Of a DNA stretch of 64,000 nt, positions 17,163-64,000 are shown one piece after another; the first letter of the stretch is position 1, and every line of letters starts with the position of its first letter. The notes under the pieces were generated by a model. It had not been told where the DNA came from, made no database searches, and worked only from the letters and a program-made list of their open reading frames with translations. This stretch comes from Candidatus Parcubacteria bacterium (GTDB lineage: Bacteria; Patescibacteriota; Patescibacteriia; CAIXNZ01), in contig JAPLYG010000009.1 of NCBI GenBank assembly GCA_026395685.1, positions 81,519 to 145,518 of the forward strand, in the 5' to 3' direction. The translations under genes and the position numbers were made by a program.

Positions 17163-19598
17163 TTATTTTCTGATCTGCGCGCCGAATTTCGCTTCCAAAT
17201 GCTGTAAAACTTTCTGATGAATAATCTGAACTTCATCCATGGTTAAAGTTTTGTCATCAGAACGGTATTCAATTCTGAATGCAATTGATTTCTTAGCTTC
17301 AGGAATGCCCTGGCCTTCATATACATCAAAGAAAGTAATTTTGCGGATTAAATCCTTGTCCACATCTTTAACCGCCTGATAAATTTCCTCCCAGAGAATT
17401 TTTTTGGCTATAATCATGGAAATATCCAAATCAATGCTCGGGAATTTGGGAATCGGCTTGTATTTGATCACGTCCGTATATAATGATGCTAATTTAGTTA
17501 AATTAAATTCAAAAATTGAGACCTTGGATTTCAAACCCAGCTTATCATACAAATTATCAGCGGGTTCGGAAATATAACCAATGTCTTTAGCCTGAACTAA
17601 AATTTTTATTGCCCGATTCATTTTGGCAAAAGGTAACACATCAACAATTTTCTCCAGTTTATAATCAAAATGCAATTGGCTTAATAAACCGGCAATGACA
17701 TTTTTCGCAATATAAAACGGCTTATCATTTTTCTTTTCGCAAATAATGCCGGCAATTAATTTTTCCTGCAAGGGTAAGCTTTTATCTCCTTTATCAAAGA
17801 CTTTTTCGCCTTTGGCTTCCGGCCAGAAAATCGAACCAACTTCGAATAAACCGAAATCATCATAATTGCGACAGTTGCTGACTGCATTGCCTAACAAATT
17901 AGGAATTAACGAACGGCGCAATAGATTCCAGTCTTTGGACTGCGGGTTGGCAATGTGGATATGATCTTCTACTTTTAAACCCAAACTTTTCACCTGGTCC
18001 TCGCCCACAAAAGAATAATTATAAACTTCGTTTAAACCAAAACCATAAGCCAGAAGCTGTTTGATTTTTCGTTCCAAATCACGTTCAATATTGGCTTCGG
18101 GCTTAGAGATCTCGATCATGGGCAAGCTTGATTTCAAATTGCTATAGCCATAAATCCTAATTACTTCTTCAACTAAATCCTCAGGGATGGAAATATCCTT
18201 CGTGGCGCGCCAGGTTGGTATAGTCACGGTCAAATCCTTAACGCTTTTTTTAACCTCAAAACCCAAACTTGATAAAATCTTCACGACCTTATCTTTGGGA
18301 ATTTCCTGACCGACCTTCTTAGTTATGAAATCAAAACTTAGTTTGATCGGCCCCTGATTTAATTTAAATTTCTTAACATCTTCAATTTTGGAGACTAATT
18401 TTGCCTGAGGACAAAGCTGCAAGATCAATTCAATGGCGCGCTTAATCCCCCACTCGGACAAATTAGGATCCAAAGATTTTTCAAAACGGATTGAAGCTTC
18501 AGAACGTAAACCTAATTTAGATTCTGTCTGACGAATAGAAACATGGTCAAAATTTGCTGATTCAATAATGACTTTTTTGGTTTTATTATCAATTTCAGTA
18601 TTAGCTCCGCCCATAATGCCGGCAATGGCCACTGGTTTAACCGCATCAGCAATTACCAGCATACTTTCATCCAATTCCCTGGCTTGATCATCCAGAGTAT
18701 CTATTTTTTCACCTTTTTTCGCATTACGAACGACAATGCGGTGTTCTGCCAACTTATCATAATCAAAAGCATGAAGAGGCTGGCCGATTTCCATCATCAC
18801 ATAATTGGTAATATCAACAATATTATTAATAGAGCGCATACCCACGCTAGCTACTCGCTTTTTCAGCCAGTCTGGTGATTCTTCAATCTTAATGCCTTCC
18901 AAAACTACTCCGCAATATCGCGGGCATAATTTAAAATCCTCAATTTTAATATCCAACCGACTGTCACCCTGAGGCTCTCGAAGGGTGACTTTGAAATCCT
19001 TTAATTTTTCGCCTATCAAAACGGACACTTCCCGGGCAATGCCATAATGAGACCATAAATCGGGTCGATTACTTAATGATTTATTATCAATTTCATAAAT
19101 CGTATCATCCAAACCTAAAACTTTACTCAAAGGCTCGCCTACTTTAGTTTTACTGTCCAAAATTAAAATTCCAGTGTGATCTTTACCCAAACCAAGCTCA
19201 TCTTCAGCGCACAGCATACCGCTGGATTCCTCACCGCGCACTTTAGCTTTGCTAATTTCCATGCCATTGGGTAATTTGGTTCCGATTGTTGCGACCGGAA
19301 CTTTTTGACCCACAGCGATATTTGGCGCACCACAGACAATATTCAATTTTCCTTCGTTCGCCGAAGCTTTATGCGAAGGCGAATCAATATTAACCACACA
19401 TAACTGCAACTTATCAGCATTAGGATGTTTTTTAACTTCTAAAATTTCGCCGACAATCACGCCATTCAAACTTTGCGCCTGGTCAGTCATACCTTCCACT
19501 TCAGCCGTGGATATAGTCAATTTAAAACCCAGCTCTTTGGAAGATAAAGAGTTTGGTATTTTTACAAAATCGGAAAGCCAATTTTTTGAGATATACAT
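17163..19598 (-). CDS. pheT: Phenylalanine--tRNA ligase beta subunit
   Basis: 811 aa. It has the N-terminal tRNA-binding/OB region, B3/4 and B5 domains and the C-terminal FDX-ACB domain (…GIMGGANTEIDNKT…). It carries a 27-bp palindromic insert at 18963-18989. Confidence 0.95.
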   Translation of the reverse strand: MYISKNWLSDFVKIPNSLSSKELGFKLTISTAEVEGMTDQAQSLNGVIVGEILEVKKHPNADKLQLCVVNIDSPSHKASANEGKLNIVCGAPNIAVGQKVPVATIGTKLPNGMEISKAKVRGEESSGMLCAEDELGLGKDHTGILILDSKTKVGEPLSKVLGLDDTIYEIDNKSLSNRPDLWSHYGIAREVSVLIGEKLKDFKVTLREPQGDSRLDIKIEDFKLCPRYCGVVLEGIKIEESPDWLKKRVASVGMRSINNIVDITNYVMMEIGQPLHAFDYDKLAEHRIVVRNAKKGEKIDTLDDQARELDESMLVIADAVKPVAIAGIMGGANTEIDNKTKKVIIESANFDHVSIRQTESKLGLRSEASIRFEKSLDPNLSEWGIKRAIELILQLCPQAKLVSKIEDVKKFKLNQGPIKLSFDFITKKVGQEIPKDKVVKILSSLGFEVKKSVKDLTVTIPTWRATKDISIPEDLVEEVIRIYGYSNLKSSLPMIEISKPEANIERDLERKIKQLLAYGFGLNEVYNYSFVGEDQVKSLGLKVEDHIHIANPQSKDWNLLRRSLIPNLLGNAVSNCRNYDDFGLFEVGSIFWPEAKGEKVFDKGDKSLPLQEKLIAGIICEKKNDKPFYIAKNVIAGLLSQLHFDYKLEKIVDVLPFAKMNRAIKILVQAKDIGYISEPADNLYDKLGLKSKVSIFEFNLTKLASLYTDVIKYKPIPKFPSIDLDISMIIAKKILWEEIYQAVKDVDKDLIRKITFFDVYEGQGIPEAKKSIAFRIEYRSDDKTLTMDEVQIIHQKVLQHLEAKFGAQIRK
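18963..18989. repeat. 27-bp GC-rich palindromic element (copy 1), in frame inside pheT
   Basis: gtcaccctgaggctctcgaagggtgac is a perfect inverted repeat and encodes VTLREPQGD. A copy differing at only one base is present in murI at 23465-23491. Confidence 0.8.
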
Positions 19599-19609
19599 AT
19601 TGATTTTTA

Positions 19610-20230
19610 TTAATTTTCGCGATAATCGATTTGGAATATTGATTGGTCATTTAGTTCATAATTGCGGAGGGAACTGTATTTGTATTCGCTAAGATCTTTA
19701 ACTATACCGTGTTTATATGGGTTTTTGTGAATGTAATCTAACTTCTCCTGAAATTTTTTGTCAGAATAGACATTAAAATCGTAAAATTTTGATTGCCAAA
19801 GACGATATTGCAAATTTCTTTTGTGCGGTGTCTGGTCTCTCGGGATTGCGCGCAGCATCTGCTCTGTTAACCCCATCCCCCTTCGGGTGGAGCGGAGCAT
19901 CGGCTCTGCGCCTGGGTCAGCTTGAGACAAGAGCAGATGCTCTTGTCTTCCCGAACTTGCGTATAAATCAATAATTCTGCGCGCAGCGGCTCCTTTAATC
20001 CCCTGCATAATTTTTGAAATGGTCAATTTTTCATCCTCAAAATAAATCAAACAATGCACATGATCGGGTAAAATTACATAACCATAAATTTTCAAACCAT
20101 ATTTCTGACGATAAAAATCAAATTCCTCCAATAAAATTTTACAGCAATCTTCATCCTTAAATATCGGCCGTCTTATATTCGTCACAAACGTCACGAAATG
20201 AATATCACCCGGTTGATTAATCCTAATCAT
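19610..20230 (-). CDS. Y1 (HUH) transposase family protein, IS200/RAYT-like
   Basis: HUH motif in LPDHVHCLI. The C-terminal WQSKFYDFNVYSD...YIHKNPYKHGIV...YKYSS matches the IS200-like/RAYT catalytic-Tyr region. A GC-rich in-frame insert lies at about 19825-19965. The gene sits between pheS and pheT. Confidence 0.75.
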   Translation of the reverse strand: MIRINQPGDIHFVTFVTNIRRPIFKDEDCCKILLEEFDFYRQKYGLKIYGYVILPDHVHCLIYFEDEKLTISKIMQGIKGAAARRIIDLYASSGRQEHLLLSQADPGAEPMLRSTRRGMGLTEQMLRAIPRDQTPHKRNLQYRLWQSKFYDFNVYSDKKFQEKLDYIHKNPYKHGIVKDLSEYKYSSLRNYELNDQSIFQIDYREN

Positions 20231-23275: not shown

Positions 23276-23362
23276 GATGGCTTAACCACGAAAATCATAT
23301 CACTAAAAAACACGAAATATATATTTCGTGTAATTTCGTGCAACATTTCGTGGTTCCGATAT

Positions 23363-24235
23363 CTACTTCAGCTCAATCTTTTCAAACTTAATTCCGCTAC
23401 CAAACCACTCCTCCCCCAACTTCTGGTAATGCGGCGACAAATCAGTCACCTGAAACTTAATATTGTCACCCTGAGGTTCTCGAAGGGTGACATCGTCGGC
23501 GTCATGCTTCGAGATCCTCAGCATGACATTCTCGTTTTTATCCAATTTTGTTTCAATCTCCGGATGCCGTGTCAAATAATCAGCCAAAGAATCAGCCACA
23601 ATTTCACCTGAATGCAAAACTTTTGTTCTTGAACTCATAATCCCCTGAATTTCCTTAAACAGAATCGGATAATGCGTACAGCCTAAAATCAAAGTATCAA
23701 CTTTTGCCAGTTTCAACGGCTGTAAATAAACTCGCAAAATCCTCTTGGCCACATCTGTTTTTTGCCAGCCTTCTTCCACCAAAGGCACCAAAAGCGGACA
23801 CGCCTGCTGTAAAACTTCCAGCTTATTATTAATTTTTCCTATTTCGATTTCATAAGCTTTGGAATTAACAGTACCTTTGGTGCCAATAACACCGATTTTC
23901 TTTTTGGCTACTTTCACTGCTTCTTCAACTACCGGCCTGATCACGCCTAATACTCGCCTATCAGCAAAATGCTGAGGCAACCAGTTTTGCTGTATCTTAG
24001 GCAAAGCTTCAGCTGACGCAGTATTACAGGCAATAATTACCAACTGGCAATCCTGCTTAAATAAAAAATCAACTGCCTGTTCCGTAAAATTATAGATTAC
24101 CTCCCGGGAGCGGTTGCCATATGGCGTCCGCGCATTGTCTCCCAGGTAAATGTAATCGTATTGAGGCAGTTTTTTGATGATTTCTTTAAGAATAATTAAG
24201 CCTCCGAGTCCGGAGTCAAAAATTCCGATCTTCAT
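23363..24235 (-). CDS. murI: Glutamate racemase
   Basis: MKIGIFDSGLGGL...IACNTAS...LGCTHYP motifs. The start is taken at MKIGIF; the ORF track starts 8 codons upstream. The C-terminus is extended and contains the in-frame palindromic element (…DVTLREPQGDNIKF…). Confidence 0.85.
   Translation of the reverse strand: MKIGIFDSGLGGLIILKEIIKKLPQYDYIYLGDNARTPYGNRSREVIYNFTEQAVDFLFKQDCQLVIIACNTASAEALPKIQQNWLPQHFADRRVLGVIRPVVEEAVKVAKKKIGVIGTKGTVNSKAYEIEIGKINNKLEVLQQACPLLVPLVEEGWQKTDVAKRILRVYLQPLKLAKVDTLILGCTHYPILFKEIQGIMSSRTKVLHSGEIVADSLADYLTRHPEIETKLDKNENVMLRISKHDADDVTLREPQGDNIKFQVTDLSPHYQKLGEEWFGSGIKFEKIELK
23465..23491. repeat. 27-bp GC-rich palindromic element (copy 2), in frame inside the murI 3' region
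   Basis: gtcaccctgaggttctcgaagggtgac differs from the pheT copy at one base and encodes the same VTLREPQGD. Confidence 0.8.
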
Positions 24236-24244
24236 AATATTCAA

Positions 24245-24332
24245 GGCGAAAACGCCCAATTTCGGACTGACAGGCTTTAGCCTGTTATATTAACACACTG
24301 AAGTGTGTCAGTCCGTTCCTTAGCGTTTTCGC
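24245..24332 (-). ncRNA. Nested multi-stem structured element immediately upstream of the murI start (candidate regulatory leader or REP-like element)
   Basis: The outer stem is ggcgaaaacgcc/ggcgttttcgc. An inner stem (ggactgaca/tgtcagtcc) encloses two hairpins (caggctttagcctg and acacactgaagtgtgt). On the murI mRNA strand the structure ends 9 nt before the AUG. Confidence 0.3.
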
Positions 24333-41603: not shown

Positions 41604-41858
41604 TTATTTAATTTGTGTGTACTCCATTGCCCGCCAGGGGCGGGCAGGCTGCCTTTGGCGGAAACTACGAGGACCTACTAAGTTGAAAATTCAAAGTGCA
41701 AAGTTTAAAGTTACAGTTAGTAGTTTAAATTTTTGGAATATATTTTTATTTTACGATACCCAATTAGCGTAACGAATATCCAGACCGAATAACGAAAAAC
41801 TATTTTAAAAGGGAGACAAAAATATCTCCCTCTCAAGTATAGAATATTTCTAAAAATT

Positions 41859-61996: not shown

Positions 61997-62112
61997 AAAA
62001 TTGAATTTAAAATTCAAAATGCAAAGTGCAAAATTACAAATCAAAAATTAAAATTTTGGTATTCTTTTATTTTAATAAAACATTCCAGAATTTTAAACTA
62101 ACAACTGCAACT

Positions 62113-62457: not shown

Positions 62458-62634
62458 ACTTAAAAAATTAATTGCTTAGTTATACGTTTATCGGTTTCCT
62501 GCCTTCGCCCGTATGAGACGGGCTACGGCAGACAAGCGTTTTTCGTTACGTCAATAGTTTAACGAAAAACGTAACGATCATCGATACCGAATAACGATAA
62601 ACCGATTTTATTTTCTAATTATTTTTGCCATCAA

Positions 62635-63240
62635 TTATATTTCATCAATTAATCCGGGATACTTTGTATAAATATATTGATAATTTGCCGCATCAAAAAT
62701 GTTATGCTTTGCGGGATTATTATAAAGATATCGCATATGTTGATTAAAATCATCATAATTGCGAATATAATGATCGTGAAGTGATTTTTGCCAATGAAAT
62801 TTTACATACAAAGTTTGATTTAATCCATATTTTGCCACAAATTGACGGCGCGTTGTAATCAAATATTCATAATGCTTTTCGATTATCTCTTCATAAATTT
62901 TATATTCCTCCCCCAATTGAAGGAGCGATTTGCAAATCGCTCCTTCGTCGACATAACCTAAGATAAAATTTATATTCCTGGTATAGTGTCTTTTGATAAA
63001 TTGCATTATTTTCGATAAATCCATCGCTTCATACGGCAAAAACATTAAATGAAAATGATCCAATAATATTACAAACGAATATAAATCAAATTTGTGCCTT
63101 TTTTTCGCCAATTTTAAAATTTCAATAAACAACTCGCAAAAAATCGACTCCTTAAAATATTCAACCCGGTTATCGGCAACACCTGTCACAAAATAAGTCG
63201 CCCCTTCAAAATATATCCGTTTTTGCGCTCCTTTATGCAT
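62635..63240 (-). CDS. Y1 (HUH) transposase family protein, IS200/RAYT-like (second copy)
   Basis: HUH motif in LLDHFHLMF. The C-terminal WQKSLHDHYIRNYDDFNQHMRYLYNNPAKHNI...YQYI is conserved with the 19610-20230 protein. A perfect 28-bp palindrome lies at 62919-62946 in frame. Confidence 0.75.
   Translation of the reverse strand: MHKGAQKRIYFEGATYFVTGVADNRVEYFKESIFCELFIEILKLAKKRHKFDLYSFVILLDHFHLMFLPYEAMDLSKIMQFIKRHYTRNINFILGYVDEGAICKSLLQLGEEYKIYEEIIEKHYEYLITTRRQFVAKYGLNQTLYVKFHWQKSLHDHYIRNYDDFNQHMRYLYNNPAKHNIFDAANYQYIYTKYPGLIDEI
62919..62946. repeat. Perfect 28-bp palindrome inside the second Y1 transposase gene
   Basis: gaaggagcgatttgcaaatcgctccttc equals its own reverse complement and encodes EGAICKSLL in frame. 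Confidence 0.8.
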
Positions 63241-63915: not shown

Positions 63916-64000
63916 AAAAGAGTTTAAAGTTCAAAGTTTAAAATGCAAAGTTACAGTGTAAAATTCAAAATTTTGGAATATATATTATTTAAAAAAACTT

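What the first reader, a model, noticed from the sequence alone, without database searches (positions are those of the whole stretch)
23465..23491. murI has a C-terminal extension built around the palindromic element
MurI normally ends shortly after the second catalytic Cys region, at about 265-275 aa. Here the ORF continues to 290 aa, and the extra tail (…SKHDADDVTLREPQGDNIKFQVTDLSPHYQKLGEEWFGSGIKFEKIELK) contains the palindrome copy. The insert may have fused the murI frame to downstream sequence. This would be a concrete example of an RPE-like element remodelling a protein's C-terminus.
Basis: partly seen in the sequence, partly recalled or inferred. Interest (0 to 1): 0.6.

Follow-up and report, generated by a model that had tools for sequence, protein, structure and literature searches.

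The report
Hairpin repeat inserted in-frame inside murI
The glutamate racemase gene does not have a new C-terminal tail; it carries a 21-codon in-frame insertion made of two copies of a small, widespread palindromic DNA repeat, placed in a surface loop just before the enzyme's normal C-terminus, which is a known kind of event seen here in a new host group.

Summary
murI (23363-24235, minus strand) encodes 290 aa, and a perfect palindrome, GTCACCCT-N11-AGGGTGAC, lies at 23465-23491.

The 33 residues after the palindrome are the native MurI C-terminus. They are conserved in 267-aa relatives that lack the palindrome and align to the last residue of solved MurI structures. They are also confidently folded in an AlphaFold model.

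What is really there is an internal, in-frame insertion of exactly 63 nt (23465-23527, residues 237-257). It consists of two inverted 27-nt hairpin units and a 9-nt spacer, with no target duplication.

The same 27-mer also sits in frame in pheT at 18963-18989. An exact-pattern scan found the family in more than 117 DNA stretches from many phyla. Most copies lie outside genes, and the stems always stay complementary.

Among related CPR MurI proteins the insert is patchy. All 7 insert-bearing proteins have nearest relatives without it, and other inserts occupy the same site. This points to repeated gain or loss at a permissive loop.

Mobilisation by a RAYT-type transposase is inferred only. One is encoded at 19610-20230, but no element copies flank RAYT genes. 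The closest known cases are intragenic REPs and Rickettsia palindromic elements. This is a new member of a known kind, of moderate-to-low interest.

The parts
23363..24235 (-). murI (glutamate racemase) coding sequence, 290 aa plus stop
   Evidence: TIGR00067 scores 222.9 bits against a cutoff of 146.65, and Pfam PF01177 matches. Both catalytic Cys residues (C70, C186) are invariant in alignment A1. The AlphaFold model matches MurI crystal structures with target-normalised TM 0.91.
23465..23527 (-). 63-nt in-frame insertion (codons 237-257, VMLRISKHD-ADD-VTLREPQGD): two hairpin units tail-to-tail with a 9-nt spacer
   Evidence: It is absent from the syntenic gene in L001, whose empty site reads AAT|AATATT, and there is no target duplication. 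pLDDT is below 50 at residues 243-250 and 254-256. Covariation supports two local stems.
   Evidence: covariance-model score 47.8 bits.
23492..23500 (.). 9-nt spacer between the two units (encodes ADD)
   Evidence: the spacer sequence varies among homologous inserts.
23501..23527 (-). hairpin unit B, inverted orientation, variant stem: GTCATGCT GAGGATCTCGA AGCATGAC on the minus strand; encodes VMLRISKHD
   Evidence: covariance-model score 46.4 bits on the minus strand.
23366..23464 (-). native MurI C-terminus, residues 258-290 (final strand, helix, strand), not an extension
   Evidence: Conserved in all 35 aligned homologues, including the 267-aa forms. It aligns to E. faecalis MurI 2vvt through the last residue. 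Block-mean pLDDT is 83-87 for residues 261-290, with strands at 259-263 and 284-286 and a helix at 268-278.
18963..18989 (+). third copy of the same 27-mer, in frame inside pheT; also encodes VTLREPQGD
   Evidence: It occupies a linker where relatives have an unrelated sequence of similar length (L001, L202) or a composite element (L003).
17163..19598 (-). pheT (phenylalanyl-tRNA synthetase beta subunit), host of the third copy
   Evidence: Pfam B3_4, B5, tRNA_synthFbeta, FDX-ACB and tRNA_bind domains.
19610..20230 (-). REP-associated tyrosine transposase (RAYT) gene between pheS and pheT; candidate mobilising enzyme by inference only
   Evidence: NCBIfam NF047646 scores 124.5 bits against a cutoff of 80, and Pfam Y1_Tnp matches. 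It is not flanked by element copies.
62635..63240 (-). second, divergent RAYT-like gene in the window
   Evidence: tblastn gives 28% identity to the first RAYT, E 1.5e-12; ORF listed.

Best explanation
murI here is a complete, ordinary glutamate racemase gene. It has acquired an internal, in-frame 63-nt insertion made of two 27-nt units of a small palindromic DNA repeat.

The unit is an 8-bp stem, GTCAnnnT/AnnnTGAC, with an 11-nt loop, GAGGYTCTCGA, and usually a T just 5' of it. The two units are inverted relative to each other (tail-to-tail) and separated by 9 nt.

The unit is 9 codons long and three of its six reading frames have no stop codon. The insertion therefore neither shifts nor closes the frame. 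It adds 21 hydrophilic, probably disordered residues (237-257) to the variable loop between the last long helix of the C-terminal domain and the final beta-strand. The native 33-residue C-terminus follows unchanged.

The repeat belongs to a REP-like family that is mostly extragenic and is found in many bacterial phyla. Copies inside essential genes survive only where length, frame and a permissive surface loop coincide. This would explain why the same sites in murI and pheT are occupied repeatedly and differently in related CPR lineages.

Shown: the insertion boundaries, the native tail, family membership of the repeat, stem conservation and the patchy distribution.

Inferred: that the units move as single-stranded hairpins through a Y1/HUH (RAYT-type) transposase such as the one at 19610-20230. 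I put that step at about 0.4. It is also inferred that the inserted protein is functional.
For: 1. A DNA alignment with the syntenic, insert-free gene in L001 places the insert exactly between AAT and AATATT. It is 63 nt long with no duplication.
2. The tail is conserved in all 35 homologues, including the 267-aa forms. A profile of the family aligns to E. faecalis MurI 2vvt from residue 26 to 287 of 290, including EFYTTGSAKMFEEIASSWLG...IHL opposite kffvtdlsehyqklgekwfg...vel.
3. The AlphaFold model has mean pLDDT 88.9, low only at 243-256. Foldseek gives target-normalised TM 0.91 to B. anthracis MurI 2gzm over the whole length.
4. The same 27-mer lies in pheT. More than 117 genomic stretches match the pattern in Falkowbacteria, Peregrinibacteria, Kerfeldbacteria, Dojkabacteria, Saccharibacteria, Bacteroidota, Chlorobi, Neomarinimicrobiota, Deltaproteobacteria and others.
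5. Of 141 copies, the three variable stem positions are fully Watson-Crick in 114 and T:G in the other 27, never otherwise. Independence would give 36 fully complementary copies.
6. Of 141 copies, 101 lie in open stretches under 150 codons and 13 lie deep inside long ORFs. Those 13 use only the three stop-free frames.
7. Six homologous murI inserts pair 97.9% of cells in the two local stems, with 5 pairs changed on both sides and 0 of 500 shuffles reaching the covariation score.
8. All 7 doublet-bearing MurI proteins have nearest neighbours without the doublet (window versus P0002 at 93.1%), and 10 other sequences carry different inserts at the same site.
9. A RAYT gene is present (NF047646, 124.5 bits).
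10. The insert appears in independent assemblies (L003, L004, L122), so it is not an assembly artefact.
Against: No element copy flanks the window RAYT or five homologous RAYT loci, L202-L206. Only one distant case, L038, has a copy 214 nt from a RAYT-like ORF. The transposase link is therefore unsupported.

In pheT the copy replaces a linker of similar length rather than simply adding to it, so simple insertion is not the whole story there.

The MurI tree is a neighbour-joining tree without support values. Recombination between alleles could mimic repeated gain and loss.

Nothing here shows that the protein is made or active.
Confidence: 0.85

Rival explanations
1. One reading: the palindrome insertion shifted or extended the murI frame into downstream sequence, creating a novel C-terminal tail of about 20-50 residues.
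For: The ORF is about 22 aa longer than the 267-268 aa usual in the family, and the palindrome lies in the last fifth of the gene.
Against: The 33 residues after the insert are conserved in every insert-free homologue and in solved MurI structures. They are confidently folded. At the DNA level the sequence on both sides of the 63-nt insert is collinear with the empty site in L001.
Confidence: 0.02
2. The 21 residues are a lineage-specific MurI loop maintained for a protein-level function, and the palindromy of the DNA is incidental.
For: Seven related MurI proteins carry a similar doublet at the same place. The insert is always in frame.
Against: The same 27-mer occurs in pheT and in over 100 mostly non-coding places in unrelated phyla. 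It is read in three different frames when intragenic.

Stems keep complementarity through amino-acid-changing double substitutions, such as VML..KHD, VMV..NHD and VTL..KGD. Distribution on the MurI tree is patchy. The region is predicted to be disordered.
Confidence: 0.03
3. The hairpins have been co-opted as a functional nucleic-acid structure within the murI transcript or DNA. Possible roles include a translation pause, an RNase or mRNA-stability site, or a protein-binding site, as proposed for REPs. This reading can hold together with the insertion reading.
For: The 63-nt insert is predicted to fold very stably: RNA -38.1 kcal/mol with z -7.0, DNA -21.6 kcal/mol with z -6.4.

Stems are conserved by compensatory change. 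T:G but never C:A mismatches occur (27 versus 0), which suggests one specific strand folds. REPs are reported to lie mostly downstream of ORFs and to act as RNA elements (PMC3733652).
Against: No Rfam family matches. Close relatives do without the insert. Stem conservation is equally expected if the hairpin is needed for transposition or arises by hairpin-templated repair. The two murI units present the loop strand on opposite strands, so only one of them could act in the mRNA in that orientation.
Confidence: 0.12
4. The repeat is a REP of the type that has no dedicated transposase, like the CGTC/TGTC-tagged REPs. It spreads or is replaced by another route, such as a different enzyme, template switching at hairpins or gene conversion. 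On this reading the RAYT genes in the window are unrelated.
For: No copies flank any of six RAYT loci examined. The base 5' of the unit is T in 81% of copies, giving a TGTC head. Di Nocera et al. report that CGTC REPs, whose tag is often TGTC, are not associated with transposase genes even in species that encode tyrosine transposases (PMC3733652). In pheT the copy substitutes for a linker of like length.
Against: Scarless insertion at a T without target duplication and strand-specific hairpin features fit IS200/IS605-type single-strand transposition. Two RAYT-type genes lie in this 64-kb window. One Saccharibacteria locus has a copy next to a RAYT-like ORF.
Confidence: 0.4

Closest known systems
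Intragenic REPs, especially CGTC/TGTC-tagged REPs (Di Nocera, De Gregorio and Rocco 2013, PMC3733652)
   Same: Both are short (20-40 bp) hairpin repeats that are mostly extragenic, with a minority lying wholly inside ORFs. Both occur as single units or dimers encoding 20-30 amino acids and are found in housekeeping genes, including tRNA synthetase genes. The head motif is C/TGTC. No repeat copies flank transposase genes.
   Different: Here GTC pairs with GAC as part of an 8-bp stem, whereas the CGTC tag is described as unpaired. The loop is 11 nt, against 4-5 nt. Dimers are tail-to-tail, whereas CGTC REPs are mostly head-to-head. There is no CCA tail. The hosts are CPR/Patescibacteria, Bacteroidota, Chlorobi and others rather than mainly Alphaproteobacteria. 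I could not see the published consensus figures, so sequence identity with any listed family is untested.
Rickettsia palindromic elements, RPEs (Ogata et al. 2000; summarised in PMC10969869 and PMC3733652)
   Same: Both are palindromic repeats inserted in frame in unrelated housekeeping genes. Both add a peptide segment judged compatible with the host protein's fold.
   Different: RPEs as first described are about 100-150 bp and specific to Rickettsia. This unit is 27 nt (63 nt as a doublet) and spans many phyla. RPE-4 and RPE-6 were reclassified as CGTC REPs.
REPIN/RAYT systems (Bertels and Rainey 2011, PMC3116915; Bertels et al. 2017, PMC5581495)
   Same: Both involve two REP units in inverted orientation with a short spacer. 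A single-copy-like RAYT gene is present in the genome, in a position conserved in a relative (between pheS and pheT in L202 as well).
   Different: The units here are intragenic. The RAYT genes are not flanked by the repeat. Covariation among six homologous inserts supports two separate hairpins, not the long inter-unit hairpin that defines a REPIN.
MITEs that make in-frame fusions (ERIC, BOX and Nezha-type elements; review PMC10969869)
   Same: Both are small non-autonomous repeats that can be tolerated inside ORFs.
   Different: There are no terminal inverted repeats distinct from the hairpin itself and no target-site duplication. The element is also much smaller.

Membership tests
Glutamate racemase MurI (TIGR00067 / PF01177) | Scores above the curated family cutoff | tested here: met
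   TIGR00067 scores 222.9 bits against a cutoff of 146.65; PF01177 scores 61.8 against 31.
Glutamate racemase MurI (TIGR00067 / PF01177) | Two catalytic cysteines in the ACNTAS and GCTHYP motifs | tested here: met
   C70 and C186 are invariant in alignment A1.
Glutamate racemase MurI (TIGR00067 / PF01177) | Complete two-domain fold, including the C-terminal strand and helix that return to the N-terminal domain | tested here: met
   The family profile aligns to 2vvt through its last residues. The model has TMt 0.91 to 2gzm, and block-mean pLDDT is 83-87 for residues 261-290.
REP (repetitive extragenic palindrome) | Imperfect palindrome of 20-40 nt forming a stem-loop | tested here: met
   The unit is 27 nt with an 8-bp stem and an 11-nt loop. 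Stems are kept by compensatory change.
REP (repetitive extragenic palindrome) | Many copies per genome | tested here: inconclusive
   There are only 3 copies in this 64-kb window. Dozens of contigs of one Falkowbacteria MAG (JACRNX01) carry copies. The complete source genome was not available.
REP (repetitive extragenic palindrome) | Predominantly extragenic location | tested here: inconclusive
   Across other genomes, 101 of 141 copies lie in open stretches under 150 codons and 13 lie deep inside long ORFs. In this window, however, all 3 copies are intragenic.
REP (repetitive extragenic palindrome) | Conserved unpaired GTAG or CGTC tag at one end (Di Nocera superfamilies) | tested here: inconclusive
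   The base at -1 is T in 114 of 140 copies, giving TGTC, a variant that paper mentions. Here, though, GTC is base-paired with GAC.
REPIN/RAYT system | Two REPs in inverted orientation separated by a short spacer | tested here: met
   Units lie at 23465-23491 (+) and 23501-23527 (-), separated by 9 nt. Similar doublets occur in L032, L037, L051 and L062.
REPIN/RAYT system | The doublet forms one long conserved hairpin | tested here: not met
   The long hairpin is the predicted minimum-energy fold. Across six homologous inserts, however, inter-unit pairing is 82% and no better than shuffles. The variable triplets of the two units never pair with each other.
REPIN/RAYT system | Cognate RAYT gene flanked by the repeat | tested here: not met
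   A RAYT is present (NF047646). No copy lies within the flanks of the window RAYT or of the homologues in L202-L206.
Rickettsia palindromic elements (RPE) | Sequence membership in one of the RPE families; about 100-150 bp; Rickettsia host | not testable with these tools
The size (27 or 63 nt) and the host (CPR) differ. Only the behaviour, in-frame insertion into housekeeping genes, is shared.
MITE | Terminal inverted repeats plus target-site duplication | tested here: not met
   The empty site AAT|AATATT and the filled site AAT[63 nt]AATATT show no duplication.

The most novel reading that the evidence does not exclude
The 27-nt hairpin may be an undescribed, near-universal REP superfamily. 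Its core is essentially identical in CPR/Patescibacteria, Bacteroidota, Chlorobi, Neomarinimicrobiota, Deltaproteobacteria and other phyla, and it is absent from 2.9 million viral contigs.

In CPR bacteria it may be actively and scarlessly inserting into and excising from the same few permissive sites of essential genes such as murI and pheT. That would generate protein-length polymorphism between very close relatives. Its mobilising enzyme would still be unidentified.
Probability: 0.3. Interest if true: 0.6.

Novelty: new member of a known kind. Interest (0 to 1): 0.35.

Why it matters
For annotation, length outliers of essential CPR enzymes can arise from translated hairpin repeats rather than from frameshifts, fusions or misassembly. 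The native termini remain intact in such cases.

For biology, the same loop of MurI and the same linker of PheT are occupied by different repeat inserts in lineages 85-93% identical. This gives a natural map of permissive sites. It also hints that these repeats turn over quickly in very small genomes.

The cross-phylum identity of the 27-mer, and the lack of any repeat-flanked transposase, bears on the open question of how REPs that have no known dedicated transposase spread.

Tried and rejected
1. An Rfam scan of 23300-23700 at E up to 10 gave only chance-level hits far below the gathering scores, so no described RNA family fits.

2. I looked for repeat copies flanking RAYT genes. None were found in the window or in L202-L206. 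tblastn with the window RAYT against all 117 repeat-bearing loci gave only two weak hits, L038 and L065.

3. I tested the long inter-unit (REPIN-type) hairpin by covariation. It is not supported, although it is the minimum-energy fold.

4. A scan of viral contigs for the repeat gave 0 matches, so a phage vehicle is not indicated.

5. Full-text searches were run for the encoded peptides (REPQGD, SLSKGD and others) and for RAYT or REPIN together with CPR or Patescibacteria. The first gave 0 papers. The second gave no listed paper holding both kinds of term.

6. One contig look-up (P0005) returned no DNA.

7. I considered and rejected an assembly artefact. The same insert is in three independent assemblies.

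8. I considered a simple insertion in pheT. The alignment instead shows replacement of a linker of similar length.

Full report
**Observation**

The minus-strand ORF 23363..24259 (298 aa from a TTG) contains the murI coding sequence. From the ATG at 24235 it is 290 aa and starts MKIGIFDSG, as do its homologues. It is a bona fide glutamate racemase: Pfam PF01177 matches, and TIGR00067 scores 222.9 bits against a cutoff of 146.65.

The pattern occurs twice in the window against 0.00 expected in shuffles. The second occurrence, 18963-18989, lies inside pheT and encodes the same peptide, VTLREPQGD.

It is in the opposite orientation and has a different but still complementary stem, GTCATGCT...AGCATGAC. 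A covariance model built from 24 distinct variants and run over the whole window with filters off finds these three copies and nothing else.

**Is it a C-terminal extension?**

No. A search of the protein collection returned a dense family of CPR/Patescibacteria MurI proteins (Buchananbacteria, Falkowbacteria, Uhrbacteria and others). Their modal length is 267-268 aa, with scattered longer forms.

In an alignment of 35 of them, the sequence after the palindrome, F.VTDLS.HYQ.LGE.WFG.GIKFEKVEL, is present in every member, including the 267-aa forms.

A profile of the family aligns to solved MurI structures through their last residues. For E. faecalis 2vvt, kffvtdlsehyqklgekwfg..kfekvel lies opposite EFYTTGSAKMFEEIASSWLG..KAQQIHL.

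An AlphaFold model built on the alignment has mean pLDDT 88.9. The only segments below 50 are residues 243-250 and 254-256. The tail forms a strand (259-263), a helix (268-278) and a strand (284-286), with block-mean pLDDT of 83-87 over residues 261-290. Foldseek matches the model over its whole length to MurI crystal structures, with target-normalised TM 0.91 to 2gzm.

**What is there instead**

The closest relative, P0002, is 93.1% identical outside the insert. It lies on a syntenic contig, L001, with the gene order murI, M50 peptidase, pheS, pheT. The DNA alignment shows collinear sequence on both sides of a clean gap.

The empty site reads ...TCA AAT | AAT ATT TTT. The window reads ...GAG AAT [63 nt] AAT ATT AAG TTT. 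The insert is therefore exactly 63 nt, 23465-23527, and encodes residues 237-257, VMLRISKHD-ADD-VTLREPQGD. It consists of 27 + 9 + 27 nt and has no target duplication.

It sits in the variable loop between the last long helix (209-228) and the final beta-strand.

**The repeat family**

I ran an exact-pattern scan of one genome per species for GTCAYSSTGAGSNTCTCGAASSRTGAC. These came from many phyla:

- One Falkowbacteria MAG, with dozens of contigs.
- Peregrinibacteria, Kerfeldbacteria, Dojkabacteria, Saccharibacteria and Buchananbacteria.
- Several Bacteroidota.
- Prosthecochloris, Neomarinimicrobiota, Deltaproteobacteria, Omnitrophota, Chloroflexota, Planctomycetia and Spirochaetia.

The same pattern has no match in 2.9 million viral contigs.

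Among 141 copies, the pattern left three stem positions free on each arm. They are fully Watson-Crick in 114 copies and T:G in the other 27. Independence would give 36 fully complementary copies. The reciprocal C:A combination never occurs. This suggests that the strand carrying the GAGGYTCTCGA loop is the one that folds, although subfamily expansion could also produce that asymmetry.

The base 5' of the unit on that strand is T in 114 of 140 copies, while the base 3' is A in only 70.

Location of the 141 copies:

- 101 lie in open stretches under 150 codons.
- 27 lie close to the ends of long open stretches.
- 13 lie deep inside long ORFs, always in one of the three stop-free frames.

The family is thus REP-like: mostly extragenic with an intragenic minority. 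The unit is 9 codons long, so insertion preserves the reading frame.

**Structure of the murI insert**

The window insert is predicted to fold as one long hairpin. As RNA it gives -38.1 kcal/mol with z -7.0, and as DNA -21.6 kcal/mol with z -6.4.

Six homologous 63-nt inserts at the same murI site were recovered from other assemblies. Comparison of these points the other way:

- The two local 8-bp stems pair in 97.9% of cells. Five pairs are changed on both sides, and 0 of 500 shuffles reach the covariation score.
- The inter-unit hairpin pairs in 82% of cells, no better than shuffles. The variable triplets of the two units in a doublet never match each other.

With only six related sequences this is indicative, not proof.

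**History of the site**

Among the 60 best MurI homologues plus the window, 44 have an empty site and 7 have a hairpin doublet. Ten carry something else:

- A single unit, VMVRQAHHD.
- A doublet with a further insertion nested in its first loop (P0010, P0017).
- An unrelated ...GSTMLTMTT... insert.
- Others.

Every one of the 7 doublet-bearing proteins has nearest neighbours without the doublet. P0006 (doublet) and P0020 (a different insert) are 91.6% identical.

The doublets also differ in kind. The window has stems ATGC then ACCC. L207 has ACCC then ATGC. L123 has a different loop type, GAGCYTGTCGA, in both units.

This argues for several independent gains, or gains and precise losses, at one permissive site. 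The tree is neighbour-joining without support values, and allele recombination was not excluded.

The pheT site behaves similarly. L001 and L202 have unrelated linkers of similar length. The window has one unit that replaces the linker. L003 has a composite of two units.

**Mechanism**

Shown: the insertion is scarless and frame-preserving, it lies next to a T, and it is made of strand-asymmetric hairpins.

Inferred: transposition as single-stranded DNA by a Y1/HUH transposase. The window encodes a REP-associated tyrosine transposase at 19610-20230 (NF047646, 124.5 bits against a cutoff of 80). It also encodes a second, divergent one at 62635-63240.

The defining REP-RAYT linkage, repeats flanking the transposase gene, was tested and not found in the window or in five homologous loci. 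One Saccharibacteria locus has a copy 214 nt from a RAYT-like ORF.

Di Nocera et al. (PMC3733652) describe a REP superfamily with a CGTC, often TGTC, head. It lacks any associated transposase even in species that encode tyrosine transposases, and it includes Rickettsia RPE-4 and RPE-6. The present family resembles it in head motif and in the missing linkage. It differs in loop length, in the pairing of the GTC and in dimer orientation. I therefore rate RAYT mobilisation and a RAYT-independent route as about equally likely.

**Comparison with what is known, and novelty**

In-frame palindromic inserts in housekeeping genes are known from Rickettsia RPEs. Intragenic REPs are also known, with dimers encoding 20-30 residues and hosts that include tRNA synthetase genes (PMC3733652; PMC10969869).

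I found no paper that links RAYT or REPIN with CPR/Patescibacteria, and none containing the encoded peptides. This repeat family and its CPR hosts therefore appear to be undescribed in the searchable literature.

The finding is a new member of a known kind. The specific claim of a remodelled C-terminus is refuted. The residual interest lies in the recurrent use of one site in essential genes and in the cross-phylum identity of the 27-mer.

Noticed in passing
window 19610-20230 (-); L202 4001-4567: A RAYT (REP-associated tyrosine transposase) gene is wedged between pheS and pheT with almost no intergenic DNA. A homologue occupies the same pheS-pheT interval in a related genome (L202). L001 has pheS and pheT adjacent with no RAYT. 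This looks like a vertically kept, domesticated position.
   Followed up: partly
window about 19830-19930 (RAYT residues about 104-140): The window RAYT (206 aa) carries a GC-rich, partly self-complementary segment...AEPMLRSTRRGMGLTEQMLRAIPRD.... It is absent or shorter in homologues of 180-188 aa. The transposase gene may itself host a different palindromic insert.
   Followed up: partly
window 62635-63240 (-), palindrome at 62919-62946: A second, divergent RAYT-like ORF (28% identity to the first) contains a perfect 28-nt palindrome, GAAGGAGCGATTTGCAAATCGCTCCTTC, inside its coding sequence.
   Followed up: no
window 17163-19598 (pheT), residues about 73-84 and 204-213: Besides the hairpin unit that replaces a linker at residues 204-212, the window PheT has an extra 9 residues (SPSHKASAN...) relative to the L001 orthologue. 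L003 and L004 carry a composite hairpin insert (VTLREPFGSAQGRPHHD) at the same linker.
   Followed up: partly
MurI homologues P0017, P0037, P0043, P0045, P0006, P0010, P0020, P0036 (alignment A1): There are other recurrent inserts in the same protein family. One is a 10-residue PPEADPPLAE-type insert after about residue 135. Another is an N-terminal MPARGGSAFGG-type extension. Both suggest further repeat families that land in frame in CPR genes.
   Followed up: no
window 23301-23355: The intergenic region just downstream of murI holds three interlocking copies of the inverted motif CACGAAAT/ATTTCGTG. A related ACGAAAA-rich repeat occurs at 41768-41800 and 62570-62602. These may be protein-binding sites.
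   Followed up: no
window 41681-41746, 62004-62069, 63921-63986: Three copies of an AT-rich 66-nt intergenic repeat (AAAGTTTAAAGTT-type), 71-77% identical to one another.
   Followed up: no
L064 220-380 (Hanamia sp.); L112; L075: In some Bacteroidota the same 27-nt unit occurs as tandem arrays of four units at a spacing of about 45 nt, rather than as singles or inverted doublets.
   Followed up: no
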